This document shows positions 5,935 to 64,000 of a DNA stretch of 64,000 bases, piece after piece. A program made the translations under genes and the position numbers. Each line of letters starts with the position of its first letter. Within the stretch, counting starts at the first letter, position 1. Under the pieces are notes generated by a model. That model saw only the letters and a program-made list of their open reading frames with translations. It did no database searches and had not been told where the DNA came from. Source of the DNA: Flaccisagitta enflata (taxonomy: Eukaryota); the NCBI GenBank assembly GCA_965153355.1, contig OZ231126.1, forward strand, positions 44,454,001-44,518,000, written 5' to 3'.

Positions 5935-6576
5935 TCACTCTTCCTCATCCCGCGCCCCTCCATAATCACCACCGCCTCCGCCGCCATTTGCGATCGCCGC
6001 CCTCCTTCTGGCCATTTCCACCATTCTGTCGATTCGGTATCGATTCCGTTTGACGCTTCTTTTGATGTTTTCCACTTCCGCTTCGATTCGTTTGACGGTT
6101 CGTTCTTCCTCCTCTCCTCGAGTCGTGATTCGCTGAATCTCGCCCTTGAACAGCACCGAGTCCATTCCGTGTTGCCGCAATTCTTGCTTCAACGCCTGCA
6201 TCCGCTCCTCGATGCCGCCCAACGCGGTCGTCCGCTGATGCGAGACTTGCTTCAGTCGATCCACGTCGTGGACGACTCGATCCAACGTCGTGGACATTCT
6301 GTCGATGAATTGCGGGTTGACCGGACGAGTCGGTTGAGATGAACGATGATGACCGCGATGACGGGAAGAAACGCCGTAAGCATCGTCATCATCTTCGCCA
6401 TCGTTGTGGTTGCGGCTGTAATATTCATCATCTTCGTTGTTGTTCCCGTCCGATGATAACTTTTGCATGATTTGGCGATCTTCCTTACGCAAGATATGGA
6501 GCTTTCTTTGAGTTTGTCGAGCGAAGGCCCGCAGCCGGTTGACGTCTCGTTGCAAAGTCTCCGTCAAGTTGTCAAC
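5935..6576 (-). CDS. Chitin-binding coiled-coil protein, exon 4 (terminal)
   Basis: Acceptor cctcacag|GTT at 6577/6576, phase 0, in frame with ORF 5935..6567; coiled-coil-like sequence; TGA at 5937-5935. Confidence 0.8.
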   Translation of the reverse strand, partial: VDNLTETLQRDVNRLRAFARQTQRKLHILRKEDRQIMQKLSSDGNNNEDDEYYSRNHNDGEDDDDAYGVSSRHRGHHRSSQPTRPVNPQFIDRMSTTLDRVVHDVDRLKQVSHQRTTALGGIEERMQALKQELRQHGMDSVLFKGEIQRITTRGEEEERTVKRIEAEVENIKRSVKRNRYRIDRMVEMARRRAAIANGGGGGGDYGGARDEEE

Positions 6577-6655
6577 CTGTGAGGAAATAAATTTATGTAC
6601 ACGTATACGGTATATGTCATTTCAAGTGGCGGACTGGCGACTCTACAAGCGGTTT

Positions 6656-6943
<288 letters not shown>

Positions 6944-6984
6944 GATTTAGCATTCCTTGGCGACTGTAGACTACTATATGTTAC

Positions 6985-7885
6985 AGGTGGGCGGAGTGGG
7001 ATTAAGTGGCGTATGGTGTTTTATTCCATCAGTGTGAGATGTGATGAGATGTGGAGTGAAATAAAGTGGCGTTCTAGGTTTTTTTTGCCATCAGGGTGGG
7101 GTTTGATGGACAGTGTAGGTGGGTGGAGTGGGATAAAGTTGCGATAGGTGTTTTTTACCATCAGGGTGGGATTTGATGGACTGTGTAGTTGGTGTAGTGG
7201 GATAAAGTGGCGTTAGGTGTTTTTTCCCATCAGGGTGGGGTTTGATAGATTGTGTAGGTGGTTGGCGAGGGATGAAGTGGCGAAAGGTGGTTTTATCTCA
7301 TCAGGGTGTGATTTGTTGGATTCTGTGGGAGGGTGGAGTGGGATAAAGTTGCGTTAGTTGTTTATCCCATCAGTGTAAGATTTTATGGACTGTGTAGGTG
7401 GGTGGAGTGGGATAGAGTGGTGTTAGATATTTTTAGATGCGTCCTCGCATCTCTATAAGAGGGTCTGGTCTGTCCGTCCGTCCGTCCATTGGTCCATTGG
7501 TCCGTTACGCATGTGCTAAAACCACGTTTTCAGCTGTTTTTGGCCGCGTTGAGATCCTTTTCTGAAACAAATGATCAGCCAACATATTTTGAGAGCCTCC
7601 TTTACTATTTAGTCATTCCACCCATCTGTTCATCCATCTGTCTCTCCATATGATCAATACATGCAAAGACACAGCCCGGACGCATCATTGCGCGGTCGGG
7701 CTTGTTTTCCCATCACTATCAAGGTGGGATATGATGAACTGTGTAGGTGTATGTAGTGGGATAAAGTGGTGTTTGGTGTTTTTTCCCATAAGAATGGGAT
7801 TTGATGGGCTGTAAAGGTGGGTGGAGTGGGATAAAGAGGTGTTTGATGGTTTTTTTTTTCCATCAGGGTGGAATTTGATGGATTC
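6985..7885. repeat. Approx. 70-bp intronic minisatellite interrupted by a Helentron-like element
   Basis: Unit CCATCAGGGTGGG.TTTGATGGACTGTGTAGGTGGGTGGAGTGGGATAAAGTGGCG... recurs at about 70-bp spacing (7088, 7158, 7227, 7298, 7367) and resumes after 7709. Confidence 0.8.
7430..7708 (+). mobile_element. Helentron/DINE-1-like element, family B
   Basis: Same 5' hairpin, GTCC tract and 3' end as 1142-1439. Confidence 0.7.
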
Positions 7886-7959
7886 TGCGTTACCAAAACA
7901 GGAATCAATAATGAGGTTCTGCATAATAGTCCCTTTTTGTTGCACATTTGTAGCCAAAC

Positions 7960-8148
7960 CTTTCGGTCGAGTTTTTCGTAATTGACGAAGACGATTCTCA
8001 TGTCCATCATGTCCTCCTTGGTTTTGCGCGCCAACTCGTCCTGATCGCGTTTGAGACCTTGAAAACTCTTTTGCAGGCCTTCGACGGATTCGTTGAGGTG
8101 TTTAGGGTGAAGTGATTTCAAGTCCGTCAACTCAAGGAGGGTTTTCAC
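7960..8148 (-). CDS. Chitin-binding coiled-coil protein, exon 3
   Basis: Acceptor cccaaag|GTG (8149/8148), donor AAG|gtttgg (7960/7959); 189 nt, phase 0 at both ends; VKTLLELTDLK...YEKLDRK. Confidence 0.8.
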
Positions 8149-8393
8149 CTTTGGGCAGGGGTTAAGAAAAGGGGGGCGGTAAGAAGGAAGGGGGGGGGGA
8201 AGATGATGAAGAAGACGAAGAAGAAGGAGACGAGAGAGACGGTATTACGGAATTTCATTGGAACCTATTCATAATCATTCATATTTAGGCATTTTCACAT
8301 GATATGAATCTCATGAATTGGAACTAGAGTCCGGCTGGCCGTGAATCTTTATCTCTTGACAGTTTCTCTTGGTCTTTCTGTCTGTGATTGTCG

Positions 8394-8494
<101 letters not shown>

Positions 8495-8520
8495 CTCTGT
8501 CCAATTTTCCGTTTCCAAAC

Positions 8521-10641
8521 CTGTTGATCATCCTCCTTAAATTCCTGGAACTTATCATCCAGTTTTCTGATTTGCAAAGTGATTTTGGCGTCACTTCTGA
8601 CAAGATGCTTGAGTTCCTCTCTATACGAGTTTAGGATGCGGTTGGCTTGCTCCACGCTTTGGTGGATCTTCTCCACTCTACCGCTTCCCGCCTGCAAATC
8701 GGCGTCGACGGCGGCTTCCCGCTTCTCCGACAATTTGAACATCCTCGTCAAGTCGTTTTCCAACTTCGTCGTCTTGGCGTCCAATCTTTTCGTCGTATTC
8801 TTCGATTGCGTCGTCGCAACATCCAGCTCCTTCGTCAATCCGGCCAAACTCGTCTTCAATCGCTTCAAATGCTGCGCCATGACGCGATCTTTCTCCTTCG
8901 CCGACGCCTCCAAACGCCTCCAAGAATCGACATTCGATTCCGTCGACTTTTTCAAGTCCTTGACGTCCTTTTCCACGGCGACGATTCGGTCGACGCGCTG
9001 TTTGAAGGCCGAATCCAACCCGGCGATGGATGCTTGAAGACCCTCTTCGCGTCGACTCGCCGCGATTTCGCTTTGCCGCAGCGAATCCCTGACGGACCGT
9101 TCCTTGGCTTCCACTTTGACGTTGAGCTTCTCAATTCCGGCCTCCAGTTTTCCGTTCAGAAACAAACTGGCAGATTTGACTTTCTCCAAGATTTCATCGG
9201 ACCATTGCTCCAACTCTCCGCTTCTACTTTGCCCGTCGACGACCCTCTCCACGACTACTCTCCTCTCCTGTCGACTAATTCCGACGTCATCATTGAGCTT
9301 GCTCAACTCAACCTTCAACTTCAACTCTTCGTTGGCATTTTCCAGTTTCTCCAGCCTCTCGAAAACGCGCTTCAGGTCTTCATTTCCGTTCGTTTTCTCT
9401 TCCTTCAACTTCCGGTTCTCATCCTCCAGCGATTCCATCTCGTCGAGACCTTCGCGGACGAGGCGCTTCAAAGCGGAGACCTCGTTCCACAACTCGGTCC
9501 GCTCGCGCAGCACCACGCGCAGCACGTGCTGAAAATCGCGTGAGATCGATGGGAACAACAACTTGGCCGCCAAGTGGTAGTGAGGGTTGGGATGTTGTTG
9601 CATGTTTGGATGTGTGTATTGTCTTGGATTTTGAAGCTGTTGTTTTTCTGGTTCACGTCGTTGTTTTTGTTTTTCCTCGAGTGACGCTTGGGATAGCGAC
9701 GCTGCGTAGGCAGAAGCAGTCGGTAAAGGAGGTGGAGAAGCTGACGAAGCTGACGAAGTTGGAGATTTGGATTTAGAAGCTGAAATAGAGGAGAAGGAGG
9801 AGGCGACGTAGGGAACCTCAGTAGAGAAAGAGTCTAATTTAGTATCTAAAATGGAGGCATCTTCTTCTCCATTTTCGTAGACATACGAACTGACTGAAGA
9901 TGTCTCATTAGAAGAATCGGAAGGGATTTCATTGTTAGCAATCTCTTGATCCATTTCTGATTTCGAAAATGATGTCGCATTTGATGAGTTGAAAGAATGA
10001 GAATTTATCGAATCGAATATTTCAGTCGTCCATTCTGAACCGACTGAAGTAAAGGACATCGTTGAAGCTTCAGTTAAGTCGGCATGTGTTGCGGCAGTAT
10101 CCGATGCGGCATTCACGTTCACTGTTGCAGCCTCTCTAATTGTCTCGTCTGTGGCTTCATCTGCAGTCGTCGTCGTAACTGAGGCACGCAACGCCGTTGC
10201 AGTAGAGGCCTCAGCATCGTCAGCGGTCGCAGTGCTATCGGGGAAGATTGGTAGAGGAGTCGTTGACGCCAATATTAAGAAGTCTTTCTTGGGAGTTGTC
10301 GTTATTGTGCGTTCAGTCAACGCCGATTTCATAGACGGACGAGGAGTAGGAACTGAGAATGAAGTGTGAGTAGGTGTAGAAGGAGGAGGTGAAAAGGAAG
10401 AAGAAGAAGAAGGCGAAAAAGAAGAAGAAGAAGAAGAAGAAGAAGAAGAAGCAGAAGAAGAAGAAGAAGCAGAAGAAGCAGAAGAAGCAGAAGAAGAAGA
10501 GGAAGAAGAAGAAGTAGGCGTAGGAGTGGATGAAGTAGTAGTGGGAGAAGTAAAAGAAGAAGAATCAGCCGCATCGCCATTAGATGATTTATATTGTTTA
10601 GCTTTGCTCAGATAAGCTCGGAAACTACTTTTCTTGTTGCG

Positions 10642-10726
<85 letters not shown>

Positions 10727-10762
10727 TTTCGGTTGTTGTTGTTGTAGTTTTTGTTGTTTTTC

Positions 10763-10843
<81 letters not shown>

Positions 10844-12498
10844 TTGTTGTTGTTGTTGTTGTTTTTGTTGTGGGTCTTTGTGCTGGTGGTCGTTGCTACA
10901 GTCGTGCTTAACGTTTCCGTGGTCGCCCAGTTGATATTGCGCGTGGTCGTCGTCATCGGTTTCACCTTTTCCGTTGCACCTATCGTCTTCGTTTGCTCCT
11001 TCATTTGTTGTCTTTTGTTTTTATTCTGTTTGGCTTCGTTTTTGTTGTTCCTTCTCTTCTTGGTATTTTGTTTTCCTACATTGTTTTTGTTTTTCTCATT
11101 TTGTTTTCCTCCGTCGATCGTTTCCTTTGTTACTTTCTTTTTAGCGCCTTCTTTGCGTCGAATCGATTGCAACATCTTCAATTTAGGCTTCGGCTTGGAG
11201 TCGTTCCTTGACTTGGTTTGTTTGTTTTGTTTCACGATGTTCGCTTTGATTTCATCAAGATTCCCTCCATCGGATGAACCATCCGCGATGCTCCTAGTTA
11301 CCTCATTCTTTTGTTGTTTTGGCCGAATAGGCACAGATTCGTTTTCATTTAGTTCGTTTCCAGGTGTCTCTTGTTTACCTTTCACAAGAGCAGGTACGTT
11401 TTGTTTCTGTTTGATGCGAGAAGGTTGTTTTTGTTTTTGTTCCGCAGGAGCAGGTTCTTTTTGTTCCTGTTTCGTTAGAGCTTGTTCCTTTTGTTCCTTG
11501 TTCGTTAAAGCGGGTTTTTGCTCTTCGATTTGTTTCATGTGCTCAGCCACATTGTTTTCTTTTCCTTCCTCCTGTTTTCGATTTTGGACCAGAGCGTCCA
11601 CATTTTTACCCTCAGTTGGCTCAACGTCCTCCTCCCCTTTATTACCTCTCGGCATGGCTATCTTCAGTTCCTCTGCTGCTGCGTCGCTTCCCGCGCTAGC
11701 GCTTTCGCCGATTCTCTGTCCCTTTTCATCGTCGTCTTCAACCCCCTCCTCCAATTTTCCATTCAGATCTCCTTCATCGAGTTTCCCATTTGGATTCGCC
11801 TCTTTGACCTCTTTTTTGGCATCAATCACGCTCGTGGAAAACAAGTAATTGTTTTGCTTCAACATTTTCTTCGGGACTCGAATTCCGAATGATCTTCGAG
11901 TTTGAATGTTACCGCCGGAAATCCAAGGAGCGTCGGCGGTAATTCCTTTCGCCGCCAAGTCCGCTGCGTGAGCGTCGGCGTCGACCGTAGAAGCATCGAT
12001 AACACCCGCGCCGATTTTCGTGTAAGCGTCGCCATTCGCATCCACGGCGACGTTTAAGCCCGCGTCGACGTCAGCATCGCTCACTCGATACGCGGAAGGA
12101 TCATCGCCTTGAAGTTGGTAATCGAGATCATCGTCCGTTTTCGCCGCCTTCTCCTCCTCCTTATCGGCGTTTCTCGCGGCTTCCTCGACATCGTCGAAAC
12201 TGCCAACGCTTTGTCGACTGCTTCTCGGATCGTCACCCGCGGGAAGCAGTGATCCAACGACCGACCTTAAAAGTTCCGTTAAGTCGGCACGAAAGAGAGA
12301 AGTCAAATCTCTGTTCCATGGATTGAATGAGGAATAAGAGGTGGGAGATGAGGGAGAGGAAGAAGAGTAGGGAGAGTCTGACGAGGCTAGGGAGTTCGGG
12401 GAGGAGGAGAAGGAGGAGGAGGAAGAGGAGTCGGCGCGACGATCATATTCAACGATGAGCCGGCAGAGGGAATCGGAAGCGTCTGTCACCGGTTCGCA
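8521..12498 (-). CDS. Chitin-binding coiled-coil protein, exon 2 (3978 nt)
   Basis: Acceptor (CT)n-ccag|TGC supplies Cys5 and Cys6 of the CBM14 domain; open frame of about 1.3 k codons with acidic, Lys/Gln-rich, poly-Asn, Ser/Thr mucin-like and heptad regions; donor CAG|gtttgg at 8521/8520. Confidence 0.88.
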
Positions 12499-12501
12499 CT
12501 G

Positions 12502-12565
<64 letters not shown>

Positions 12566-12854
12566 AGAAGAAGAAAGAGATGAGAAACAAGAAACAGCAG
12601 AAAGGAGGGCGGAAAGGCAAGACAGACAGAGACAGAAAGAAAGTAAAGAGGTCAAACAGAAGAAAAGAAGAAAAGAAGAAGAATGAAGAAGAAGAAGAAG
12701 AAAAGAAGAAGACAGACAGGGAAGATATTGAAGAGAATGAGGCAGCAGTAGAAAAGAAGAAGAAGGGAGGGAATGAAACTGGCAGGAAGAAAGAAAGACA
12801 GACAGACAGACAGAAAACAAAGCCAAAAGAGAATGAGAGCTGAAAGAAGAAGAA

Positions 12855-14577: not shown

Positions 14578-15431
14578 TCCTGTTTTATTTCTTTCTTTTC
14601 CCTTTGATTCATTCATTTCTCTCTTCATTTTTGTCTTTGGGCTTCTTTTTTCCAATCTTTTTTTTTAAAGATGATGAAGCGGAAGATAAAGGAAAGTCGA
14701 GTTTCATTAAGAGAGAAGACATTTACTTAAAACCAACTGAGAAATGAAGCCGCATAATAATTTGGTAGAAGAACTTCACTTCTCTCTGCTCATGAGAGTG
14801 AAACGGGGACCGAAGACTTTTAATTCTTTCAAAGAAAAAAAAAAGAGTTGATAAAAAGATGGGTTTCGATATATGTGATCATAATGAGAGCAAAGTTGAG
14901 CCTTTTGAAAAAGTCGGATTTTTTGGTGGCGGCGGCGGTGGAGGAGGCGGCGGCCTGTCAGGAGGAGGGAGTGGTGAGGGGAGAGGAAGAGGAGGAGGAG
15001 GAGGACAAAGTTGTCGGCCGTCTTTTTTTTCGACTCTTGAATCGTTTGAACTTTACTTGGAAAAATTGGGGGAGCGCGCGACGGGAAAACCGGTCGAGCG
15101 CGTGCGGAGTGCGGACGACGGCTCACATCTGCGAAAACGCATACTATGCACATACCCTCCCCTAATCTCCAGTCACCAATCATCAACCCCACATATTTCA
15201 ATCAATCAAATCTGTAACATAACCACCATTTAAAAAAATGACAGGAAATGGACTTTTGATGGTGGGGGAGCGGGGGGTGGGGGATCAGAATAATGAAAAA
15301 CAGTCTTCGTTGAGCTCCCTTACTGTTGTTTCTCCGATCATATCCTCTGTAAATGGATCAATTGTTCATTAGTAGCATTGACAATTAAAACAAGAACCAT
15401 TTATTGGTCCTTTCCGTTGGGAACCCCATTT

Positions 15432-16225
<794 letters not shown>

Positions 16226-16575
16226 GATTGCCGGACATTCTCATCCTTCCCTACCCCCAACTCTCACCGTCACGTCTGTCTCCCCTTCATCGATGAGGTG
16301 TTGGCTAGTCACACTTAACTATCGGTTTGACCGGCCGCATTTTGCTCTCAACCCAATTGATCTCTCTTGTTAATGAATGTTTCCGTAATTTCAAACCAAT
16401 TCACTTTTTGACACCAATTGCACTTATGTTATTTCTAAATGAACGTCAAATTAGTGTTACGAGTTTCGCATATTTTCATCACCCTTGTAGTGCGAAATCG
16501 TTCTTCACTTGAACACGCCACAAAAGAATAGTTGATGTGTCGTCTTTGCTTCACTTTCCTTTTATTGTTTTCTTA

Positions 16576-21990: not shown

Positions 21991-22073
<83 letters not shown>

Positions 22074-22788
22074 GTACTCTATAACAATGCTTACAGCATG
22101 GTGGCTGTTGAGCTTAAAAAAAAAGAGTAGATGATAAAAGCAGAATGAAAAGATGGTATTAACTTTTATAATCATGGGCTCTTTAAACATTTTTGTGAAT
22201 CTTTACTTTTTAGTTGCGGACAAGACACTCTATAAAAGACTTTGTCTGTCCGTCGGTCCGTCCGTTGGTCTTTCGGTCTGTGGTGATCGAGTCGAAAAGT
22301 GTGAAAACGTGCATTTATGATGCTGCAGAGCAGTTATGATTGTTTGAGTGAGTGAACATGGGGTGGGGGAGAGTCGAGAGTTGCACGCCTCTGCCCCAAC
22401 GCCCGCGTCACTTGTTAATTCAATCAGGTTTATCTCATTTACCTAATTGCTTCTAAGCGGTGGTGTATGATTTTTGATGAGTGAAAGGATATTAAAATCT
22501 TATCATTTATTGTGATACTACTAATTAACAACATTGTAATAACTATTTCAGCCTTGAACCGAGCTTCAAATAAGGCTTAACAGCATTGAGCCTCAGCAAA
22601 AAATGATCCCGTTGTTAGAAATATAACGTTTTTAAAATATAACGAATTCGAGAAATACAAGTTAACTGATATTTCTCCTCATTCTCACGGTGAGGGAGAA
22701 GAAAGTGTTTCATTACTACCAACTCGCAATCACCACATCGCTCTGGAATCAAAAGGTTATCTCAAACAAACCAATGCGTTATTCGTCT

Positions 22789-22890
<102 letters not shown>

Positions 22891-23169
22891 GCCACTTTGT
22901 TTTCCATCATCCATGGATATTCATCCCTGCCGCTGCCGCTTTCACCTTCCCATATCCTAAGTTGAGGATATTCGTGTTGCTGCTGCTCACACTCTCGTTT
23001 TGTGGTCAGTCGCCCAAGATCGTATGGAAGGTTGTTTTTGATCATCGTTTGTAACATCGGATGATAAGCAATTTCGTTACGAGTTGTATTTCTACGTGGA
23101 ATAACGTCGATGCCTCACCGATAAGAAACTTTCCACGCTGAGCCTGGTAAGTTCATGGGAGTGTGTGTG

Positions 23170-23209
<40 letters not shown>

Positions 23210-23459
23210 TACCGAATAAACGATAAACGAATATTGATTTGCCGCGATGGTGATCGATCGAGGGCCCAAAAGCGGTGGTTCAATAACGACGCCATTCCAA
23301 CGTTTTCTCTCCTTCGTATCAATTAAAACGGCTCAATCCTTGCTCATAGATCAGCAAATGAAATGAACGGCGGCAAGTCTGTCATAAGAATTAAGTTTTA
23401 TCTCGCATATACCGCTGTACAATAAATTCCATGATGTGAAATATCAATCACGAGTTAAA

Positions 23460-23576
23460 ATGTCCAAACCACGTAAAAAAGTAAAAACCGAGAAGCATAC
23501 CGCTACGTCAACAGGAGGGGCAACTACATTTACCACCCCACCAGCCTCTGAAAAACAACAACAACAACAACAACAA

Positions 23577-23615
<39 letters not shown>

Positions 23616-26541
23616 CCTGTTCAGCTGGCAGTTCCAGCGCCAACCATGCAGCAGTTATCTAATGCACAAATGCCACTTCAATTGGTGCAATTTCCCAGTG
23701 GCCAACAAGCTTTCATGCCCGTCAATCAACCCATGCTTGCACCTCAACTGCAACAGCAACTCCTGATGGTCAATGGATCAAGTACACAGCAAGCCAAGAC
23801 AGTTCCTCAGCAACCGGTCGTTCCGATGCCGCAAATCATTTCCGCAAACGACGGTTTGACGATGCAGCAACTTCAAGCCGCGCCGGCGGCCATGAGTTTA
23901 TTCCCTCCTGGTGTTAGAATGCCTTACATGCCGGCGCCGATGTTTTCATTGCCGACAAATGGCATTCAACAACAACAATCTTTGCCACAACAGCAATTGC
24001 TGCAGCAGATGCAATTGCCCATTCCAAAAGTTCTTCCGACGGCCTCATTGGTGGCGTCAACGGCAGCTACCACGCCAACCACGAAGCCCATGGCCACCAC
24101 GCCTTCAAAACAACAACAACAACAACGACCGACATCACCAATATCCCCCTCCTCTTCGTCATCTTCCTCCATTTCCGATAGCGACTCTGATTCGTCGACG
24201 TGTCCCGGCTGTGAAAACCAATCAGAGGTCGCCAATCATCAATTAGGGTATTTTTCCACTGTTTCTCAAGTCAAAGATGCTTTGTCGAGATTATCGGGAA
24301 GTCCACCCTCTGGCATCACTGTGCAGATCGTGGAAGAAGGCGATCAAAGCGAATGTGCCGCTGCGGCGGCAAATGCGGCGGCTGAGGCGGCGAAGTTCAT
24401 CCTTAGAGGATCAGAGGACGTCGTGGCGTTGGTTCAGCGCAACGTCGATCACGTATCAGATTGTCGGCGCTCTTTCTCGCTCGCCGGCGTTGTTGTTTGG
24501 GACGCTGTTTCCGAGAAGCTAGTCATTGACGCAGCCGCCAATCTCGAACGCGCCGTCGACTCGAGCGGATTCTGCTTCACCGACGCTCTCAAGTTTTGTC
24601 ATTGCGGAAATTTGCCTCTTTTCAAAAGCTTCTTAGTCGGCTGCTCTTTGGATGTAGAGGATAGTCAAGAAGCAGTGGACGAGAAAGAGGATAACAAAGG
24701 ATTCCATTGCGCCTTCAAGGACAAACCTTTTGTCGACAAAGTGCCGTCGACGTTCGGAGGCGAGGCGGTGGCCAAGTCGGTCGCAGATGACGTGGATTGC
24801 ATCGCCGATCAGTTGTCGACGTTGTCTTCGCTGACGCTGCCGGCGGCTGCGTTGCGGCGTCACGCGGCGTTGCGCGAATCGGCGTTGGAATGTAGTTTGG
24901 GAACCGCGTCAAAATTCGCCGGAAGAATCTTCTCGTCGGCGATCGTGGAAATGCGAGGATCGACGCATCGGCGGAAAATTCAAAGACCGACGATCGGTTC
25001 CGCGGCGGCGATTGTTTATTTAGGAAAAGGGGAATCTAAACAGATGTTGCCACAATTAACCTTTGTGGAGGAGAAACAAGGAGGGGGAGGAGGAAGAGGA
25101 GGACAAGATAGAGGACCAATGGTAGGCGTCGCTTTAGAGAGGCGCGCTGTATTTTTGACTCGCGCCGATTTTTGGCGTTCTTCAAGTTGCGATGACACTA
25201 CCGGTTTCGCGTTGGTGTTTTACTGCGAATCCGGACTGAATAAGAGAAATCACGGTAGTAACGGGATTAACAACAACGGATGTCATAAAGAGAACAATGT
25301 CATTCTGGGAAGCGAAACGAAACCCCCGGTAAATGGAATAACAACGGCTTTAGATAGTCATTACACGATGAAAATGTCGACATCAGAGATTCTGCCACCG
25401 CCGCCGCCGCTGCAACAACAGCCACCACCAACACCACAGCCGAGAGCTGTAACGGCTGATGATATCCTGGGTCAGTGTATGGAGACGCTGTTTGGTGACT
25501 CTGCAGAGGATTCCGCCTTGAAGATTTGCGAAGAAGGCGAGAAGGGCGGAGATGATGACGAAGAGGAAGATGCTGACGATGATGAAGAGGATGATGACGT
25601 AGATGTTGACGTCGTCACTCCGGAAATAGACGAAGAAACCACCGTCACCGCCGCATCTCTTGTCAGTCAACAAAATGCTTCCCAAGCGCAGCAGCAACAA
25701 GAGCAGCAAATGCAGCAGCAGCGTCTGCCACATCTTCAGCCAATATTGGGATTTCCACCCAACGCCGCAGCGGGATTGAATGGTTTTCCAATTCCGACTA
25801 CCACTATCGACCGAAATCAAGTTCTCTCGGTCTTGCCGTATTTCCAAAATGGCGCCATGAATCCTGGAAACCTTCTTGCTCAAGGCACCAATATCATCGC
25901 AAATGCTAATCTCAATCAAGGAAACGTCCATTATATCAATCCGCTTCATATAGCTGTGACCGCCACGACTGCACCGACGACGACAACAATGACCACGACG
26001 ACGATGCCATTGACGACAACGGCGGCTTCTGTGGTACCTGGATCCACCGTGATTGCTTCCTCTAGCATTGCCGTAAACACCGCGACCGTTCAAAATGGAG
26101 TTAAAGATTTAGCCCGTCCGATGATAGAAGATATTTCATCGCCAGAAGAGAGCATTTCGCCCCCCGTTGGGGAAACGACGTCGAACACTGACGGCGACGT
26201 GAACAAAAGGGCCAATTCTGTTGCGAACTTGAATGGAAAATCATCTGAACCCGACGTCACATTAAAGCGGACAAAAGAGTCAACTGCCGCTTCCATCCTA
26301 GAGGATGCGACACCGTCGACACAAACTTCGAAATCCAATAACAAGATTCAGCATTGTCCTTACTGCGGAAGAGGCTTCGAATATGCCGGAAATCTGAGAC
26401 GTCATGTGACTAAATTACATCCGGGCTGCGAAGTTCCCGGAAAAAGCACCAAAATACGCTCCAACGGTGGAAATCTCGAAGCTTTCGCGCCGGCGAAAAA
26501 ACAAAAGCTCAATGGAAACGTTGAAACCGGAAAAATGCCTG
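23460..26541 (+). CDS. TET-like pseudoenzyme / C2H2 / C-clamp protein, exon 1 (basic N-terminus, poly-Q, TET-like domain, acidic region, C2H2 finger 1)
   Basis: First in-frame ATG after TAA at 23385; KPRKKVK NLS-like; TET-like motifs at 24201-25256; C2H2 CPYCGRGFEYAGNLRRHVTKLH at 26355-26420; donor CCTG|gtaaac (phase 1) followed by microsatellite intron. Confidence 0.88.
24201..25256 (+). other. Divergent animal-type TET Cys-rich + DSBH domain (approx. aa 248-599), predicted catalytically inactive
   Basis: Collinear matches to human TET2 recalled from memory: HQLG/THLG, AKFILR/AKWVVR, VVVWDAV/ILVWEGI, CHC..SFLVGCS/CAC..SFSFGCS, HCAF/GCKF, ECSLG..GRIFS/ECRLG..GRPFS, QMLP/HVLP, VGVA/VAVA, FALVFYCESGLNKRNHG/ISLVFYQHKSMNEPKHG. 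Confidence 0.8.
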
Positions 26542-26577
26542 GTAAACCTGTGATTCTAACTGCTTTCTTTCTTTTTT

Positions 26578-26655
<78 letters not shown>

Positions 26656-26664
26656 CTTCTGTCT

Positions 26665-26763
<99 letters not shown>

Positions 26764-26943
26764 TTTTGGTGAGTTTTGCTTCCCCAACTTTTTTGTTTTT
26801 ATTTTTCCTCTGCCTCGACCTGTTTTATTTATATGTGTCCGTCTGTCTACCTACACCCCTCCCAATCTTCCTTATTCTTATCTATCTGTCAAATGACACT
26901 CCTATCTTGCTGTCAACTGTCACTTTTTTTTTCACCTCTTCAG

Positions 26944-27899
26944 GCTATACCATCGTTCGACTGAGTTCCGACAGTCAACAGACAACGCCGTCACTCGTCA
27001 AATTCGAACCCTCAGAAACACCGCATTCTGATTCGTCAAGCTCAACTCCTCCCATCGTCCAATCAGATTCTCCGCTCATGACTTTGACCGCAGCGGCGCT
27101 TTCCACCGCCGAAACGTCATCGCTCGTCAAGATAGAGACTAACGGTATCAGCGGTGTTGGCTCGTCGATATCTTCTCTATCCAACGGCTCGACAGCAACA
27201 TCCGCTTCCTTTCCGTCTACTACTATTGTACCGCCACCTCTCATTAAGGCTCCAACTATATCCTCATCAGCCTCAGCGGCAACTAACTCCCCCTTGTTCG
27301 TGGTGTCAAATGGCGTGAAACCCGCCGTCATGCCTCCGATGTTTCAATTGGTGATGGCTTCATCCGCATCTCCTTCAATAACGAAACCCGTCTCAACTAC
27401 ATCTAACGGCCTACCATCGAAAGCGACTCCAATTCTTATCGCTTCTATCAACACGTCAACGCTAAACTCAACTGCTTCGTCCGCCCACGGCGCTCCAGAA
27501 GTCGTCGACTCTCTTATCAACGTTCCTGCAGCCGCGACTGCACCCGCCAAAATCCTCATCACGCCAGCGAAAAGTACATCCGCCAAATCCGTCGTCAAAT
27601 CTCCCGGGGTGGGCGCCGCCGCGACGCCAAAAGTCATGATGTTGCCAAACTCAAAGCAGCCTTCAGCTTCCTCGGCCTCCTCCCCACCATCCTCCTCCCC
27701 TCCTTCCTCATCTTCTTCGCCCGCCGTCGGCATCGTTCTTCCGTCGATGAGTGATCCCGAGAAAGACGCGATGATTCTGCGGCATCTTCAAGAAGAGTTG
27801 CTCAAGCATCGATCGAAAAACGCCACCTCGCGCGGCAAAAGGGAATCGGGCATTGATAAGAGACTCATCGCGGAATATCTGGAAACGTACAAGAAACAG
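26944..27899 (+). CDS. TET-like / C-clamp protein, exon 2 (Ser/Thr/Pro-rich, helical C-terminal part)
   Basis: Acceptor tttttcacctcttcag|GC restores Gly in phase 1; donor AAACAG|gtttgt in phase 0. Confidence 0.85.
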
Positions 27900-27925
27900 G
27901 TTTGTACTTAAATAGCCTTGTTTTA

Positions 27926-28020
<95 letters not shown>

Positions 28021-28302
28021 GTTTCATGATGAAATCAGAATGCGGTTGTTGGTAATTGATATTGTTGTTAGGTCATTATTAGTCTTTTCTTCTTCTTCAT
28101 TAGTTGCCACAGTTTTCGTACGGAGTATTGCATTTCCTCTGTCGTCGTTGTAGTTGTTAGTTTTTTTATTGTTTATAATCTCGTTGCCGTTTCTTTATGG
28201 CTTATGCTCTCATTGCTTTCCGATATTCCACAATCACAATTTTAAATAAATGTAACTGAAAAGGGGTTTTCAACTTTTCTGCAAAATATTCCTCTCTAAA
28301 AG

Positions 28303-28782
28303 GTCTTGGTTCCTATGGCCGCCCCGGACATAATCGGCGTCGACGACTATAACAAGAATCGCTGCGAAACTTGTGGGCGCGTCATCGTCGGCCCTCCGGA
28401 ATTGCTGGCCGCTCACGTCAGGGAAGCCCACAACGTCGTCGAAAAGGAGAAGATGGGCAAGAAATGTCGAGCGTTATTCGGCATCCTGAGAGTCGTTGAG
28501 TGGTGCAGACTGTGTCAACTGAAAAAGAAATGCGAAAGAGCTTCCAAGTACGAGGAAGAGATGATGTTGATGACGACGAAAACTACACCGGTAAAAAGTG
28601 GGGACAACGAAGAGAGAGTTGGTGACGTTGCGGGAGTGACTTCAAAGGACAGCGACACTGGAAACGATGCGCCAAAAGGAAAATCACCAACGTTTGTCTC
28701 TATGCCTATAAATGCCGTAAAATGTGAAGTTTTAGCGCCAGACGTGAAACTGTTGAAGGGAGGTGGTGCAAAAGGGTGTTAA
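28303..28782 (+). CDS. TET-like / C-clamp protein, exon 3 (atypical C2H2 finger 2 + C-clamp)
   Basis: Acceptor cctctctaaaag|GTC in phase 0, in frame with ORF 28306..28782; CETC-x13-H-x4-H at 28363-28431; KKCRALFGILRVVEWCRLCQLKKKC at 28459-28533; TAA stop. Joined CDS 4518 nt. Confidence 0.85.
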   Translation, partial: VLVPMAAPDIIGVDDYNKNRCETCGRVIVGPPELLAAHVREAHNVVEKEKMGKKCRALFGILRVVEWCRLCQLKKKCERASKYEEEMMLMTTKTTPVKSGDNEERVGDVAGVTSKDSDTGNDAPKGKSPTFVSMPINAVKCEVLAPDVKLLKGGGAKGC

Positions 28783-29169
28783 TAATGTTTGGGCTGGCCG
28801 GTGGGGTAGAGATTAGAGAAGTCATCTTAGTCTCTATGAGAGATGGAGACTAGTTTGGATTTGATGCGAATGAAGAAAATTTTAGTTGAGCGCACATAAA
28901 CTTAAGAGACTCAAGCGTTCAGGAAAGACCGTGCCTTTGATTATTGCATCGTTTGTCAATCTTCTACTGTTCGTGCGCTGAATCATGAAATCATAATGTG
29001 ATAGTTTAGAAAATTACACATATATTTTAAAATCGATCAAATGTTGTTTTATTTGCAGACTCGCGATTCTTTAAAGTGGAAGAGGCTTTTCCGTCCCGCG
29101 CTCGGTGCGTTCGTCGGTCTGTCAGTCCATAGGTCTATCCAAAACGCACAAGGCAGATACCGGAAAATC

Positions 29170-29613
29170 CAGCTGAGTTGTCGGATTCCGTTAAGCTTTT
29201 ACCCAAAGATGCTAAAAGTCATGTGTTTTAAATTGATCAAGTCTTAAAGAGTTTACATTGACATTTTTTTTGACAAAATTTCATCCATTTTGGTCAAGTA
29301 GTCAGTGACAATTTTAAAGTAGTTTTATACATTTGTCAGTGCATCTTTCATTTGAGATTAATCTTCTCTCTTTGGCAAGAATAGTTAGAAAATATTGAAA
29401 ATAAATCTAAAAATTCTTAATTTTTGATGAAAAATCTGTCAAATGGGAAAATACTTATGACACTTCAAATCTATGCATAGATTTACATGTAAAAGGCAAA
29501 CTACTTGACCAAAATTTTGAGAAAAAAATGTCAATCTATACTGTTTAAAACTAGATCAATTTCAAATCTGTTTCTTGGCATCAATAAGTAAACAGAATCC
29601 AACAACTCAGGTG
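29170..29613. mobile_element. Degenerate foldback/MITE
   Basis: CA.CTGAGTTGT.GGATTC at both ends in inverted orientation, plus an inverted internal block (ATTGACATTTTTTT...TGGTCAAGTAGT). Confidence 0.6.
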
Positions 29614-29649
29614 AAAACATGGGCAGTTCAACTCCGCCGCAGTTGTATA

Positions 29650-30014
29650 CAGACAAAAGTGAAATACAAGAAGTTAACCCCCCATCCCCCAGCATCCCCC
29701 CCTACAGCCGCATCCATTAAATAGAAAAAGGGAATGGAAGTTAATATCAATATAATTAGCCTTATCAGAGTGATTTTGGAATTCATTCTCAGTTAAGAGT
29801 TACAGCTTAAAAATTAGCTGAAATTAATATTTTTTGGATTTTACTAAAAATGCAATATTTGTTTTTGTAGTTATAAAAAGTTGCTCTGATTAGACTAATA
29901 GTATTGATACAAGTTTTCATTCTTGATCTTAAAGTTCTTTTTTTCTGCGGTTGAGGCTGTAGGGGGGTGCTACAGTTTTTGGGGGGTTAACTTCTTGTAT
30001 TTCACTTTCGTCTG
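29650..30014. mobile_element. Tc1/mariner-type MITE
   Basis: TA|CAGAC.AAAGTGAAATACAAGAAGTTAACCCCCC inverted at both ends; TA flanks. Confidence 0.8.
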
Positions 30015-31640
30015 TAGATTTCTGACAGAGGAATTGTTGTCGAGAAAAATTGAATCTGACAAATGGAAGCGAAGATACTAAGAGGAGATAATAGTCGCAA
30101 AAGCGTTAGATGGTCAGCGGTACCCTGGCCCTGCCTAAGTAGGTTGTACTTGTAATTGGAGGGGGAGTAGGGCAGCGGCCCCGAAGGGGTTGATGACCTA
30201 TGCTTTGACACATAAGTGGCAAAAAAAAAAAAAAAAAACTAGACGCGATTGTTTGACTGTTGATTGCTTTGTACTAAAAAATGCAAGACCCTTTTAATCC
30301 ATGACGATTTTAAAGAACATCAAAAAATCTTACATTTGAGATCCTTCTGATCATTCTAGCTTCAAACTTTATCTAAAGCTATGATAATTAAAAGATGACC
30401 ACTCAAAATTCTCAATCCTGCCTCCATCTCTTTATAGTGACCAACTTTGAATTGATACAGCTTGTAAATACAGCAAAATCAGGGATTCTTCTTGGTTTCA
30501 TCTTGTTAAGAATTAAAAATACTGCTCCATTTGGCAATCAGGAATTTGAATACTGAACTTCGATCTTGTGTCATTTCCAAACAAATTGAGCTACAAATTT
30601 CTGCTTGGTTTAGATTTGTAGAGTTTTCGGAGCTCTTTTACATACTCCTGGACTTTAAGCAAAAAGTTTAAGCGGTTTACAACTTATTTACAGATATTGA
30701 GCGTCTAGTTTTTTTCTTTGCCACTGTTATGGGGAATTTTCTCCTTCTTCTTCTTCTTATCCTTCTCTTCCTCCGCACCCTCCCCCTCCTCCCAACCTCC
30801 ATACCCATATCCCAGCCTTGGGGCCCATATCCCAGCCTCGAGGCCCAAATCCTAGTCTTGAGGCCCAAATCCCTTTAGGCCAGAATTTGGGCCTTGGGAT
30901 TGGGATTTGGGCCTTGAGGTTGGGATATGAGCCTCAAGACTGAGATATGGGCCTGGAGGTTAGGGGAGGGGGGTACAAAGAAGGATGAGAAGAAGACGAA
31001 GAAGAAGGAGGAGAAAATTCTCCACATGTGTGAAAGCATAGGTCATCGACCCCTTCGGGGCCGCTGCTCAAAAAGGGAGGAATGTCAAATATGGGAGAAG
31101 AGGAGGCATGGAGGCATGGAGGCCATGTTGGGGGTTGAGGGAAGTGGGGGCGGAAAGGGAACGGAAGGCCTCCATAGAGGTTTCGTTGTGAAGAACGAAA
31201 GAGTTAGGGGAAAGTAATTCCCACCATCGCAGTTTTCAGCTCAAAACGAAGAGACTCGGAAAAGAAAGGAGTCAACACAGTAAATTTCCGTTTTTTAGTC
31301 GCGTGCTACGCGACTCTACACCCCGCTTTGTCGGTCGGTCCGTCCGTCCGTCCGTCCGTCCGTCCGTCCGTTCGTCCGACCGTCACACTTTACTTTTTTT
31401 TTGTTTTTTGCAGTCTTTGGCCTCACTGCTTCTGCCCAAGTGATTTCAATTACAGCCACTGCCCACCCGTACGCGACTGGGGTAGCCGTGTAAGGACTAA
31501 GTGGAGGAAAAGAGTGAAAATGACGTAAAATTATACATCAATTACATCCGTTGGATTCATGCATCTTGAAATTTAGCACCTTTATCGAATCACCAGCCCT
31601 ATTAAACGGAAGTCGTGGAAAAGACAGTAAGCAGTGGGTG

Positions 31641-52403: not shown

Positions 52404-53894
52404 AGCAAAACACGATTTTCGGCAGTTCAAAGCTCCAGACAAATTTTCTTCTTTTTTTTTTGTTTCGTTTTTTTCTTTTCAAAGGTTTTTCTTTTTTCCT
52501 CTGCTGTTGGCGGCGTAGGCAATGAAGTTTTCCCCTTTTCTTTCCTTTTAATTCTGTTTCTTTTCATTATTCTGATTTGTACGTTTTTTCCCTTTTTCTT
52601 ACGTCTTGAATCATGATGATGCCAATATCAAGACACACAACCGAGGAGGCGTTGATTGCTGTTGCAAACGGGCGACAACAACGTTTAGAGCAGGACTTCG
52701 CCATGAACTTAAATCAACATTTAAAGAGTGATCACTGATCAGACTCTGTCTCTACCACTCAGCGAGCCATACAAGCGATGCTACGTCTGGGCGGTGCACA
52801 TAGGGCAGAGAGTATTTTTTTAAAGCATATGGGGACATCCTTTTTTTCAATTTTTTTTTAAAATTCCATTGTGCATTATAACCTGTCGGAGGTAGAGGAA
52901 CATGATTTGTCTGTATTACCCCATTCCATGTACAGCTTATTGGAAGCCAAAGATAAATTTTGTCTTATATTTCAATAGAGAGAGAAAAAAAATCCATTCC
53001 TACCTATTTCCGCCAAAAACTTAATACCTATTTGTAGATCTCCTTATAGCAAATCCAAATACGTAATCTTTTCCTGCTACTTTTTTGCACTTTAAGAGAA
53101 AAAGCTCATGGAAAAGTTGTTGCATAGCAGCTCTTTCTTAATTATTGGTGCCCGACTAAGGGAAGACGCCACAAAATATAGATCTTAGTGATAAGCTGAC
53201 ACATTCAGACTGACCAATAAGAAGCAAGGAACAAACATCCAAAGATGAAGCTCAGTTCAAGATGATGTTACAGTTTGGTCACTCTCTTGCTTTTGGTGTC
53301 TGTCATCGATTTTGTCATCGATTTTTACATTCTAATCCTTGAGCTTTTGTTAAATAATTAAAGAAGTAATGAGGTCAATTTTCTTCAACAAAAACTATTG
53401 AGAACAAAATCTTGGTCAGAATCCACAGTGCGGTGGGTTAAACGGTCGAAAGATTCATTGGTTAGTTGTACCTCGGTTGATCGCACTTTTAATTCAGGTG
53501 TTTTTCACCCTCGCCCATCCGGCCATCCTCAGGCGACTATTAGAACTAATAATTCTCCACTCTTCATTCAGTCGTTACGACTCGTCACCCCAGATCCTCC
53601 CCCTAATCTCACATTTTCGTTTTCTCACATCACAAACAGTATGAAGTCCTCACATCCACGCTTCCATATCACCACACCTTCAAACAACCTAACACACCCC
53701 CACCTTTAAATCCTCCACGTTCCCCACTCTTTTTTTTTTGCACCGCTCATTACCGGATTGACTCCGCCCCGTAAAAAGCTGTTTTGCCTTCTCTTTTAAA
53801 TTCCTCATCTTTTCTTTTTTCTTCCTTCTTTTTTTTTTTCCAACACTAAGGCCAAAGTTCATTTTGGCTGATTAAAACTTTCGTTTCTTTATTT

Positions 53895-54227
<333 letters not shown>

Positions 54228-63016: not shown

Positions 63017-63249
63017 AGTGAGAGATACATTTGAAATTTTCAACTAAAGAACAGAATCGCACGGCCTCAAATAGATAAGCCGGGATTCAGATTCTGGCTG
63101 GCTAATGTTACGCGAATAACGTCATAACCGTCAATATAGATAATATTGATACTGTCTGTTTTCATTTTCTTAACTTGTTGTGTTCCACGATAGTGGAACA
63201 CTAAGTATTCAAAAATTCTCCGTCCATCCCAGTTTTTTCCTATGTAAAA

Positions 63250-64000
63250 ATGTATGTCACGCAACCCAGTTTTCTCCAATGTATGTCACACAGCCCAGAA
63301 TTCTCCGATGTATGTCACACAGCCCAGAATTCTCCGATGTATGTCACACCACCCAGTTTTCTCCGATGTATGTCACACCACCCAGTTTTCTTCCATGTAT
63401 GTCACACAGCCCAGAATTCTCCGATGTATGTCACACCACCCAGTTTTCTCCGATGTATGTCACATAGCCCAGAATTCTCCAATGTATGTCACACCACCCA
63501 GTTTTCTCCGATGTATGTCACACAGCCCAGAATTCTCCAATGTATGTCACACAGCCCAGAATTCTCCGATGTATGTCACACCACCCAGTTTTCTCCGATG
63601 TATGTCACACAGCTTAGAATTCTCCGATGTATGTCACACCACCCAGTTTTCTCAGATGTATGTCACACAGCCCAGAATTATCCGATGTATGTCACACCAC
63701 CCAGTTTTCTCTGATGTATGTCACATAACCCAGAATTCTCCAATGTATGTCACACCACCCAGTTTTTTCCGATGTATGTCACACAGCCCAGAATTCTCTG
63801 ATGTATGTCACACCACCCAGTTTTCTCCGATGCATGTCACACAACCCAGAATTCTACAATGTATGTCACACAACCCAATCTTCTCCGATGTATGTCACAC
63901 AGCCCAGAATTCTCCAATGTATGTCACACCACCCAGTTTTCTCCGATGTATGTCACATAGCCCAGAATTCTCCAATGTATGTCACACCACCCAGTTTTCT
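63250..64000. repeat. 29-bp tandem minisatellite with two alternating variants (runs off window end)
   Basis: ATGTATGTCACACAGCCCAGAATTCTCCG and ATGTATGTCACACCACCCAGTTTTCTCCG mostly alternate. Confidence 0.95.

What the first reader, a model, noticed from the sequence alone, without database searches (positions are those of the whole stretch)
28363..28539. C-clamp (CRALF type) as a possible functional substitute for CXXC
Seen: KKCRALFGILRVVEWCRLCQLKKKC has exact C-x12-C-x2-C-x5-C spacing with the conserved FG and W, a few residues after a C2H2-like finger. Known: TCF C-clamps read KKCRA(R/L)FG...WCxxCRRKKKC and bind GC-rich helper sites containing CpG, reportedly preferring unmethylated CpG as CXXC does. 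No HMG box is present. The RR after Cys3 is QL here, which may change affinity. Inference: convergent recruitment of a CpG reader to a TET-fold protein, possibly overlapping Wnt/TCF helper sites.
Basis: partly seen in the sequence, partly recalled or inferred. Interest (0 to 1): 0.75.

Follow-up and report, generated by a model that had tools for sequence, protein, structure and literature searches.

The report
C-clamp zinc module on orphan protein
The last exon of a large, poorly sampled animal gene encodes a zinc finger followed by a genuine "C-clamp" DNA-binding motif, so the protein is probably a DNA-binding regulator rather than an active DNA-demethylating enzyme.

Summary
Window 28465-28533 (+) encodes a four-cysteine C-x12-C-x2-C-x5-C motif with FG and W, 11 residues after a C-x2-C-x13-H-x4-H finger (28363-28431). 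It is the only such motif outside poly-Cys translations of microsatellites, and 0 of 200 simulated windows carried the constrained pattern. The best solved-structure match is the SLC2A4RG C-clamp (7dta, E 0.0056). The best distant match among 1.84 billion proteins is a tardigrade HMG-box plus C-clamp protein. The module is invariant in four near-identical ORFs and conserved in a 58%-identical homologue.

Finger-plus-clamp without an HMG box is the layout of the SLC2A4RG/ZNF395/ZNF704/Glut4EF family, so no convergence is needed. The exon joins the upstream 4.5-kb ORF through an in-frame GT-AG intron, but no RNA read covers it.

The "TET fold" of the upstream domain (24234-25262) rests on a language-model lead alone. 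Pfam, six PDB sequence searches and AlphaFold gave nothing. The HxD and Rx5a motifs that define TET catalysis are absent.

Best reading: the DNA-binding tail of a non-catalytic, lineage-restricted nuclear protein. It is a new architectural variant of a known domain.

The parts
23460..26541 (+). Exon A of the proposed gene. The ATG at 23460 opens MSKPRKKVK..., followed by a Q-rich N-terminus, the conserved central domain, an acidic stretch and an internal C2H2 finger.
   Evidence: It lies in a stop-free frame 23388-27911. The donor CTG|GTAAAC lies after 26541. Homologue P0003 aligns over it.
24234..25262 (+). Conserved globular domain of 343 aa. It is possibly a degenerate TET/JBP-like fold and lacks the HxD and Rx5a motifs.
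   Evidence: 55% identical to P0003 (P0003 E 1.1e-104). ESM Atlas features: top hit 0.94 with 188 shared features, and 24 of 30 hits fall in the Tet_JBP set. No Pfam or PDB sequence hit. Motif scan.
26352..26420 (+). Internal classical C2H2 finger (HCPYCGRGFEYAGNLRRHVTKLH).
   Evidence: Pfam zf-C2H2 E 0.0028 at 18.5 bits, below the 25.2 cut-off, and zf-C2H2_4 E 0.0054. It is conserved in P0003.
26542..26943 (+). Proposed intron 1: 402 nt, GT..AG, filled with (CTAT)n and (CT)n microsatellites. Its length is a multiple of 3 and it has no stop in frame, so the ORF reads through it.
26944..27899 (+). Exon B: a Ser/Thr/Ala/Pro-rich region that ends ...RLIAEYLETYKKQ.
   Evidence: The frame is open. 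The acceptor is TTTTTTTTTCACCTCTTCAG|G and the donor is CAG|GTTTGT. No Pfam family.
27900..28302 (+). Proposed intron 2: 403 nt, GT..AG, containing (TGT)31. An in-frame stop at 27909-27911 lies 9 nt into it.
   Evidence: The junction is not verified by RNA.
28303..28782 (+). Exon C, the last coding exon (stop 28780-28782). It encodes the finger, the C-clamp and a variable tail.
   Evidence: Joining A+B+C gives 4518 nt, 1505 codons and no internal stop. Near-identical ORFs P0004 and P0010-12 and the homologue P0005 are known.
28363..28431 (+). C2H2-like finger, C-x2-C-x13-H-x4-H (CETCGRVIVGPPELLAAHVREAH).
   Evidence: The Cys and His positions are invariant in P0005. AlphaFold gives strand-strand-helix there with pLDDT about 71. 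There are weak PDB matches to CTCF fingers, E 0.39-3.4.
28465..28533 (+). C-clamp, C-x12-C-x2-C-x5-C (CRALFGILRVVEWCRLCQLKKKC). With its basic flanks it spans 28459-28539.
   Evidence: PDB 7dta SLC2A4 regulator, E 0.0056. P0007, an HMG-box plus C-clamp protein, E 2.1e-6 library-wide, with 17/36 and 19/36 identities. The four Cys, FG, W and LKKKC are invariant in P0005.

Best explanation
Window 28363-28539 encodes the C-terminal DNA-binding module of a roughly 1505-residue, low-complexity nuclear protein. The protein is found so far only in this organism and one or two relatives.

The module is an atypical C2H2-type finger followed 11 residues later by a bona fide C-clamp. By analogy with TCF/Pangolin and SLC2A4RG/ZNF395, the four cysteines hold one zinc ion. 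The clamp, helped by the KKK run before Cys4 and the KK before Cys1, would then read a short GC-rich motif of the Helper/CCGG type in the major groove. The neighbouring finger would contribute little to specificity. All of this is inferred, not shown.

The module is spliced onto two upstream exons (inferred from in-frame GT-AG junctions). Those exons carry a Q-rich region, a conserved 343-residue domain and a second C2H2 finger.

The conserved domain may descend from a TET/JBP dioxygenase fold, but it lacks the iron-binding and 2-oxoglutarate-binding signature motifs. The protein most likely acts as a sequence-specific transcription factor or scaffold, not as an enzyme that the clamp targets to CpG.
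For: Clamp identity:
- The spacing and the FG/W residues are exact and unique beyond chance.
- The best of 10 PDB hits is the solved SLC2A4RG C-clamp, E 0.0056, 14 of 28 aligned residues identical.
- Among 6 hits at E<=0.001 in 1.84 billion representatives, the only distant clamp-region hit is P0007 (E 2.1e-6). It carries two HMG boxes, each followed by a clamp, and matches at 47-53% identity.

Constraint:
- All 12 variable columns among the window and four near-identical ORFs fall at residues 99-157 of exon C. None falls in residues 7-98, which hold the finger and clamp.
- The Cys/His ligands, FG, W and LKKKC are invariant in the 58%-identical P0005.

Gene model:
- Both junctions have good consensus and are in frame. 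The joined CDS is 4518 nt with no internal stop.
- All three exons share GC about 0.50-0.53 and CpG o/e 1.2-1.4, against 0.38-0.43 GC around them.

Non-catalytic domain: no HxD anywhere in the domain in the window or in P0003. No Rx5-aromatic in the window, and only a non-conserved one in P0003. No His lies between domain positions 246 and 339.

Functional analogy, from passages read:
- The C-clamp binds one Zn and is sufficient for Helper-site binding; all four Cys and the basic residues between Cys3 and Cys4 are required (PMC3896468).
- Specificity of SLC2A4RG and ZNF395 resides in the clamp, not the finger (PMC11601247; PMC5339479).
Against: - No C-clamp profile HMM could be run. The Pfam copy gave no clamp family for the exon.
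- AlphaFold left the clamp at pLDDT about 33, so there is no structural confirmation.
- The two residues after Cys3 are QL, not the RR of the tardigrade TCF-like P0007 or the RW of SLC2A4RG. This may weaken or alter binding.
- The link of exon C to exons A and B is unproven. The homologue P0003 ends before this region. P0004 and P0005 are stand-alone ORF calls that begin at a Met near the exon start.
- The TET-like reading has no support from Pfam, six PDB sequence searches or PHROGs.
Confidence: 0.6

Rival explanations
1. Exon C is a separate small gene. It would encode a 155-residue finger-plus-clamp protein starting at ATG 28315, unrelated to the upstream ORF, which would then end at the stop at 27909-27911.
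For: An in-frame ATG lies 4 codons into the exon, and a TAA lies directly upstream at 28297-28299. Database ORF calls P0004, P0010-12 and P0005 all start at a Met at or near this point. No RNA read spans the junction.
Against: Only 403 nt, largely a (TGT)31 microsatellite, separate it from the upstream coding exon. The GT and AG sites are well formed and in frame. ORF callers always start at a Met, so those calls carry little weight. A homologue at similar divergence exists for both parts: P0003 at 54% and P0005 at 58%.
Confidence: 0.2
2. One reading: an active TET-type dioxygenase that uses a C-clamp instead of a CXXC domain to find unmethylated CpG.
For: The ESM Atlas feature search places the central domain nearest Tet_JBP clusters: 24 of 30 hits, top score 0.94. 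The window has no CXXC-like pattern and no zf-CXXC Pfam hit. CpG methylation of the Helper site reduced TCF-1E binding in one EMSA (PMC4267635).
Against: The motifs that define TET catalysis are HxD, Hxs and Rx5a (PMC4150289, passages). They are missing in both family members. There is no Pfam Tet_JBP hit. The Atlas 'recognition' value was 1777, below the 2300 that the tool states most known families reach, so a high score is weak evidence.
Confidence: 0.05
3. It is simply the divergent orthologue of Glut4EF/SLC2A4RG/ZNF395/ZNF704 in this lineage. The central domain would then be a lineage-specific insertion unrelated to TET.
For: The C-terminal layout is the same, a single C2H2 finger then a C-clamp with no HMG box. 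The best solved-structure hit is SLC2A4RG.
Against: No family member other than the 33-residue PDB peptide was recovered at E<=0.001 by the exhaustive search. Signature residues of the clamp (CRA.FG and KKKC) match the TCF-like P0007 better than the SLC2A4RG peptide, which has CRKVYG and KKAC. No other conserved region of that family could be detected by Pfam. The clamp is too short, about 30 residues, to settle orthology.
Confidence: 0.15

Closest known systems
SLC2A4RG (HDBP1/GLUT4EF), ZNF395 (HDBP2/PBF), ZNF704 and Drosophila Glut4EF
   Same: A single C2H2-type finger is followed by a C-clamp with no HMG box, and the clamp lies near the C-terminal end of a long, largely disordered protein. 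The solved SLC2A4RG clamp (7dta; the same sequence is also in 9z44) is the best PDB match, with 14 of 28 residues identical.
   Different: No further similarity to that family was detected. The clamp's signature residues (A.FG after Cys1-Arg, KKK before Cys4) are closer to the TCF type. The protein carries an extra internal C2H2 finger and a 343-residue conserved domain, neither of which appears in the passages read on that family.
C-clamp of TCF/Pangolin and the vertebrate TCF-1E/TCF-4E tails
   Same: It has the same cysteine spacing, the FG, the W before Cys2 and the KKKC ending. It is 47-53% identical over 36 residues to the two clamps of the tardigrade HMG-box protein P0007.
   Different: It has no HMG box and no beta-catenin-binding domain. 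The two basic residues after Cys3 are QL (KL in P0005). A C2H2-like finger precedes the clamp where TCFs have an HMG box.
Animal TET dioxygenases with an N-terminal CXXC domain (for example honeybee TET, PMC4150289)
   Same: It is a large protein in which a DNA-binding zinc module accompanies a conserved domain. A language-model search places that domain nearest Tet_JBP families.
   Different: It has no CXXC domain, no Pfam Tet_JBP match, and no HxD, Hxs or Rx5a motifs. The DNA-binding module is C-terminal. Catalysis is not expected.

Membership tests
C-clamp DNA-binding domain | Four conserved cysteines, with 12 residues between Cys1 and Cys2, Cys2 and Cys3 closely paired, and about 30 residues in all (PMC3896468, passages). 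| tested here: met
   C-x12-C-x2-C-x5-C at 28465-28533. The cysteines are invariant in P0005.
C-clamp DNA-binding domain | Basic residues between Cys3 and Cys4, which are needed for Helper-site binding (PMC3896468). | tested here: inconclusive
   The sequence is QLKKK in the window and KLKKK in P0005, so the KKK run is kept. The first two positions are not both basic, unlike RRKKK in P0007. The passages read do not say which three residues were mutated.
C-clamp DNA-binding domain | Significant sequence similarity to established clamps. | tested here: met
   7dta SLC2A4 regulator, E 0.0056. P0007, E 2.1e-6 against 1.84 billion proteins. Pairwise E 3e-10.
C-clamp DNA-binding domain | Match to a curated C-clamp profile. 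PMC11601247 cites a SMART model. | not testable with these tools
   The Pfam copy returned no clamp family for the exon. SMART is not among the libraries offered.
C-clamp DNA-binding domain | Stoichiometric zinc and zinc-dependent binding to GC-rich Helper/CCGG DNA. | not testable with these tools
   This needs biochemistry. The AlphaFold model of the clamp was unreliable, pLDDT about 33.
TCF/LEF | An HMG box next to the clamp. | tested here: not met
   Pfam found no HMG_box in P0001, P0002 or exon B. None was found in 123 other ORFs of the window. The positive control P0007 scored E 1.3e-24.
SLC2A4RG/ZNF395/ZNF704/Glut4EF | A C2H2 finger region plus the C-clamp as conserved regions (PMC5339479: three conserved regions, CR3 being the clamp; PMC11601247: single C2H2-zf plus clamp). 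| tested here: met
   The finger lies at 28363-28431 and the clamp at 28465-28533. The layout matches, but homology of the finger itself was not tested.
SLC2A4RG/ZNF395/ZNF704/Glut4EF | The N-terminal conserved region CR1 of the family. | tested here: inconclusive
   Pfam gave no family for the upstream ORF other than the internal C2H2 finger. I hold no family sequence against which to align.
TET/JBP dioxygenases | A match to the Tet_JBP domain profile, or a double-stranded beta-helix fold. | tested here: inconclusive
   No PF12851 hit at E<=10. No TET chain in 6 of 6 PDB sequence searches. AlphaFold failed at pLDDT 30.8. The ESM Atlas feature search gave 24 of 30 nearest clusters in the Tet_JBP set.
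TET/JBP dioxygenases | The HxD iron-binding motif (PMC4150289). | tested here: not met
   There is no H.D anywhere in the 343- or 354-residue domain of the window or P0003. The one conserved His in the expected region reads THRR or THQR.
TET/JBP dioxygenases | A distal Hxs iron ligand and the Rx5a 2-oxoglutarate motif (PMC4150289). | tested here: not met
   No His lies between domain positions 246 and 339 in the window. No R.{5}[FYW] occurs in the window domain, and only a non-conserved one occurs in P0003.
TET/JBP dioxygenases | A CXXC zinc finger, present in the single invertebrate TET (PMC4150289). | tested here: not met
   No CXXC-type cysteine pattern occurs in six frames of the window. 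There is no zf-CXXC Pfam hit.

The most novel reading that the evidence does not exclude
A lineage-restricted, catalytically dead descendant of a TET/JBP dioxygenase has become a sequence-specific DNA-binding factor. It did so by acquiring two C2H2 fingers and a TCF-type C-clamp. This 'pseudo-TET' would be tethered to CpG-containing CCGG/Helper-like motifs. There it could compete with, or scaffold partners of, the true TET, or overlap TCF helper sites. It would also be a third architectural class of C-clamp protein, beside TCFs and the Glut4EF family.
Probability: 0.35. Interest if true: 0.7.

Novelty: new variant of a known kind. Interest (0 to 1): 0.5.

Why it matters
In the papers I read, C-clamps are described in only two protein contexts: TCF/LEF factors and the SLC2A4RG/ZNF395/ZNF704/Glut4EF family. 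A recent survey calls them a possibly large, unexplored class of DNA-binding domains (PMC11601247). A third context would widen that picture. It would be more interesting still if the partner domain proves to be a degenerate TET fold, because that would be an example of a DNA-modifying enzyme fold retired into a DNA-targeted scaffold.

As it stands, the solid part is ordinary: a known domain found in an unannotated gene. The unusual part is unproven. My literature searches (listings only) turned up no paper describing a TET-like protein with a C-clamp. These were keyword searches of open-access text only.

Tried and rejected
- RNA evidence. One search listed a single polyA RNA run (X1, same study; no RNA holder was listed as holding the stretch). 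Laying about 6% of it on 22500-30500 gave 168 reads, all only partly fitting, in 2 of 30 bins (a GA-rich acidic repeat near 25568 and a repeat near 30090-30125). There were no joints and no coverage of any exon junction. This says nothing about expression or splicing.
- Structure. AlphaFold on the central domain with a 2-row alignment gave pLDDT 30.8. On exon C with 6 rows it gave pLDDT 40.6, and only the finger reached about 71. I ran no fold search because the models are too poor.
- More relatives. The word-indexed searches found only P0003: 1 of 7,998 scored, 0 of 8,000 and 1 of 8,000. Two metagenome scans found none. No whole genome is held for the window. I could therefore obtain no TET or Glut4EF-family sequences from any tool, and ran no profile-profile test and no clamp phylogeny.
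- By recall only, I see five collinear blocks of resemblance between the central domain and the human TET2 catalytic region. I give this no weight beyond a lead, because HMMER does not detect it.
- Whole-protein ESM look-up of P0003 returned only generic long C2H2 proteins and no structure.
- PHROGs gave nothing meaningful. Rfam found no RNA family in the window.
- Earlier-findings look-ups returned nothing relevant. One search returned only phage sliding-clamp notes.
- A chance motif is rejected and by conservation.

Full report
**The observation**

The + strand of 28303-28782 is an open frame. It encodes a C-x2-C-x13-H-x4-H finger at 28363-28431. Eleven residues later comes KKCRALFGILRVVEWCRLCQLKKKC, with Cys1 to Cys4 at 28465-28533.

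In the six-frame translation the bare spacing C-x12-C-x2-C-x5-C occurs 37 times. Of these, 36 are poly-Cys read-outs of microsatellites. With the FG/W constraint the site is unique. None of 200 first-order Markov windows had the constrained pattern, and they averaged 0.025 spacing-only matches.

**Is it a C-clamp?**

- Pfam gave no family for the exon apart from a sub-threshold DUF7576 (E 0.044).
- phmmer against PDB sequences put the 33-residue SLC2A4 regulator peptide (7dta; same sequence in 9z44) first of 10 hits. It scored E 0.0056, aligning query 48-75 with 14 of 28 identities and all four cysteines, G and W in register. The other nine hits are CTCF fingers over the finger region (E 0.39-3.4).
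- An exhaustive phmmer of residues 1-88 of the exon against 1.84 billion representatives gave 6 hits at E<=0.001:
  - P0004, essentially the same ORF;
  - P0005, 58% identical, 162 aa;
  - P0007, E 2.1e-6 over the clamp;
  - P0006, P0008 and P0009, which match only the finger region.
- P0007 is a named tardigrade protein with two HMG boxes (E 1.3e-24). Each box is followed by a clamp, 17/36 and 19/36 identical to the window.
- The passages I read in PMC3896468 define the clamp by exactly this cysteine spacing. They show that it binds one zinc, suffices for Helper-site binding, and needs all four Cys and the basic residues between Cys3 and Cys4.

I conclude that the motif is a genuine C-clamp (about 0.9).

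**Constraint**

The alignment of the window exon with P0005 and the four near-identical ORFs shows the finger ligands, GPPE, GKKCR, FG, W and LKKKCE invariant. Among the window and the four near-identical ORFs, all 12 variable columns lie at residues 99-157. None lies in residues 7-98. The DNA-binding module is therefore under purifying selection, while the tail is free to vary.

**Gene context**

Upstream lies a 1507-codon stop-free frame, 23388-27911. It contains a 402-nt stretch of (CTAT)n and (CT)n microsatellite. This stretch is bounded by CTG|GTAAAC and a long pyrimidine tract ending in CAG|G. It is best read as an intron that happens to keep the frame.

The frame ends 9 nt after a CAG|GTTTGT donor at 27899/27900. 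An acceptor CTCTCTAAAAG|G at 28302/28303 is in phase with it. Joining 23460-26541, 26944-27899 and 28303-28782 gives 4518 nt and 1505 codons with no internal stop. The three exons share GC 0.50-0.53 and CpG o/e 1.2-1.4, in contrast to their surroundings.

This model is an inference. The only RNA run offered gave no coverage of the gene. The one full-length-type homologue, P0003 (1015 aa, 54% identical, E 1.1e-104), stops shortly after the internal C2H2 finger on a 4.2-kb contig. I put the one-gene model at about 0.75-0.8.

**The 'TET-fold protein'**

The conserved part of the upstream ORF is 24234-25262 (343 aa, 55% identical to P0003).

Evidence against a detectable TET relationship:
- No Pfam Tet_JBP hit, even at E<=10.
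- No TET chain in any of six PDB sequence searches, whether whole domain, 2-row profile or four sub-fragments.
- Nothing from PHROGs.
- AlphaFold with two rows failed, pLDDT 30.8.

Evidence for:
- The ESM Atlas feature search put a Tet_JBP-bearing cluster first, with score 0.94 and 188 of 256 shared features. In that cluster 16% of members carry PF12851. In all, 24 of the 30 nearest clusters fell in that set.
- However, the 'recognition' value was 1777, and the tool states that below 2300 a high score is weak evidence.
- From memory I also see collinear resemblance to the conserved blocks of the TET2 catalytic region. That is recall, not a test.

Whatever its origin, the domain lacks the family's catalytic signature. 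PMC4150289 (passages) names HxD and Hxs for iron and Rx5a for 2-oxoglutarate. Neither the window nor P0003 has any HxD. The window has no R-x5-aromatic. No histidine lies in the stretch where the distal ligand would be.

I put TET/JBP descent at about 0.6 and catalytic activity at under 0.1. The window holds no CXXC-like pattern. There was no Pfam domain at E<=0.001 in 123 of 123 further ORFs scanned. Those 123 came from 312 ORFs of 70 aa or more:
- 174 were dropped as low-complexity;
- 3 had been scanned;
- 2 are the gene's own frames, scanned;
- 10 alternative-frame ORFs overlapping the gene were left out.

**Comparison with the known**

The passages read say that, besides TCFs, C-clamps occur in SLC2A4RG, ZNF395, ZNF704 and fly Glut4EF. 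Each of these has a single C2H2 finger, and the clamp rather than the finger gives the specificity, CCGG-type. The window's finger-then-clamp layout without an HMG box therefore matches that family's architecture. The clamp's own signature residues (A.FG, KKKC) are nearer the TCF-like P0007 than the SLC2A4RG peptide.

About 30 residues cannot resolve which is the closer relative, and I could obtain no further family sequences. The protein is not a TCF, because it has no HMG box. Membership of the Glut4EF family is open. Membership of TET as an enzyme family fails on the tested motifs.

**Methylation angle**

One preliminary EMSA reported strongly reduced TCF-1E binding when the Helper CpGs were methylated (PMC4267635).

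In this window CpG o/e is 0.83 and GpC o/e is 0.85. This 64-kb stretch therefore shows no methylation-type CpG depletion. How far CpG methylation matters in this organism cannot be judged from it.

**Verdict**

It is a real, conserved C-clamp with an adjacent finger, most likely the DNA-binding tail of a large non-catalytic nuclear protein.

The idea of a CXXC substitute on a TET enzyme is not supported as stated. A weaker and more interesting version, a dead TET-like scaffold tethered by a C-clamp, remains possible (about 0.35). It needs cDNA, a proper fold assignment and binding assays.

Noticed in passing
window 26542-26943: The proposed intron 1 is 402 nt (a multiple of 3) of (CTAT)n and (CT)n. 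It has no stop in the coding frame, so exons A and B read as one 1507-codon ORF. Automatic ORF or gene callers would translate microsatellite as a 'LSLSLS/YLSIYLS' peptide.
   Followed up: partly
window 27900-27911: An in-frame stop lies 9 nt inside the proposed intron 2. A transcript that retains this intron would encode a protein ending ...KKQVCT without the finger and clamp. This would be a possible clamp-plus/clamp-minus switch, reminiscent of the alternatively spliced TCF E-tails. It is speculation.
   Followed up: no
window 28700-28760 (exon C tail): The otherwise divergent tails of the window protein and P0005 share a short motif, AVKCE in the window and AVKIE in P0005, followed by L.P. 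This looks like a hydrophobic-K-x-E sumoylation-type site.
   Followed up: no
window 5938-12651, minus strand: Long minus-strand ORFs (228 aa and 1446 aa) encode coiled-coil-like, Asn/Ser-rich low-complexity protein. They have no Pfam family above threshold. This is probably a second gene, unrelated to the finding.
   Followed up: partly
window 30086-30125: RNA reads from run X1 pile up (depth about 21) on a piece of roughly 40 nt, with loose ends on both sides and a G/A difference at 30117. It looks like a fragment of a repeated element that is transcribed elsewhere. Rfam finds no family there.
   Followed up: no
whole window, e.g. 15300-16300, 22000-22888, 27926-28019, 53870-54500: There is a very high density of long perfect microsatellites: (CT)n, (GA)n, (TGT)31, (AAC)21 and (CTAT)n. 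They produce many spurious long ORFs and poly-Cys or poly-Leu/Ser translations.
   Followed up: partly
window 63205-64000: Overlapping + strand ORFs show a tandemly repeated peptide unit of roughly 29 residues (..MYVTPPSFLRCMSHSPEFSNVCHTAQNSP..) running off the window end. There was no Pfam hit.
   Followed up: no
protein P0009: A 92-aa database ORF contains two copies of a stretch 56% identical to the window's finger core (CGRV..GPP.LLAAA) but without the histidines in register. It is probably a wrong-frame or repeat-derived ORF. Its origin is unknown.
   Followed up: no
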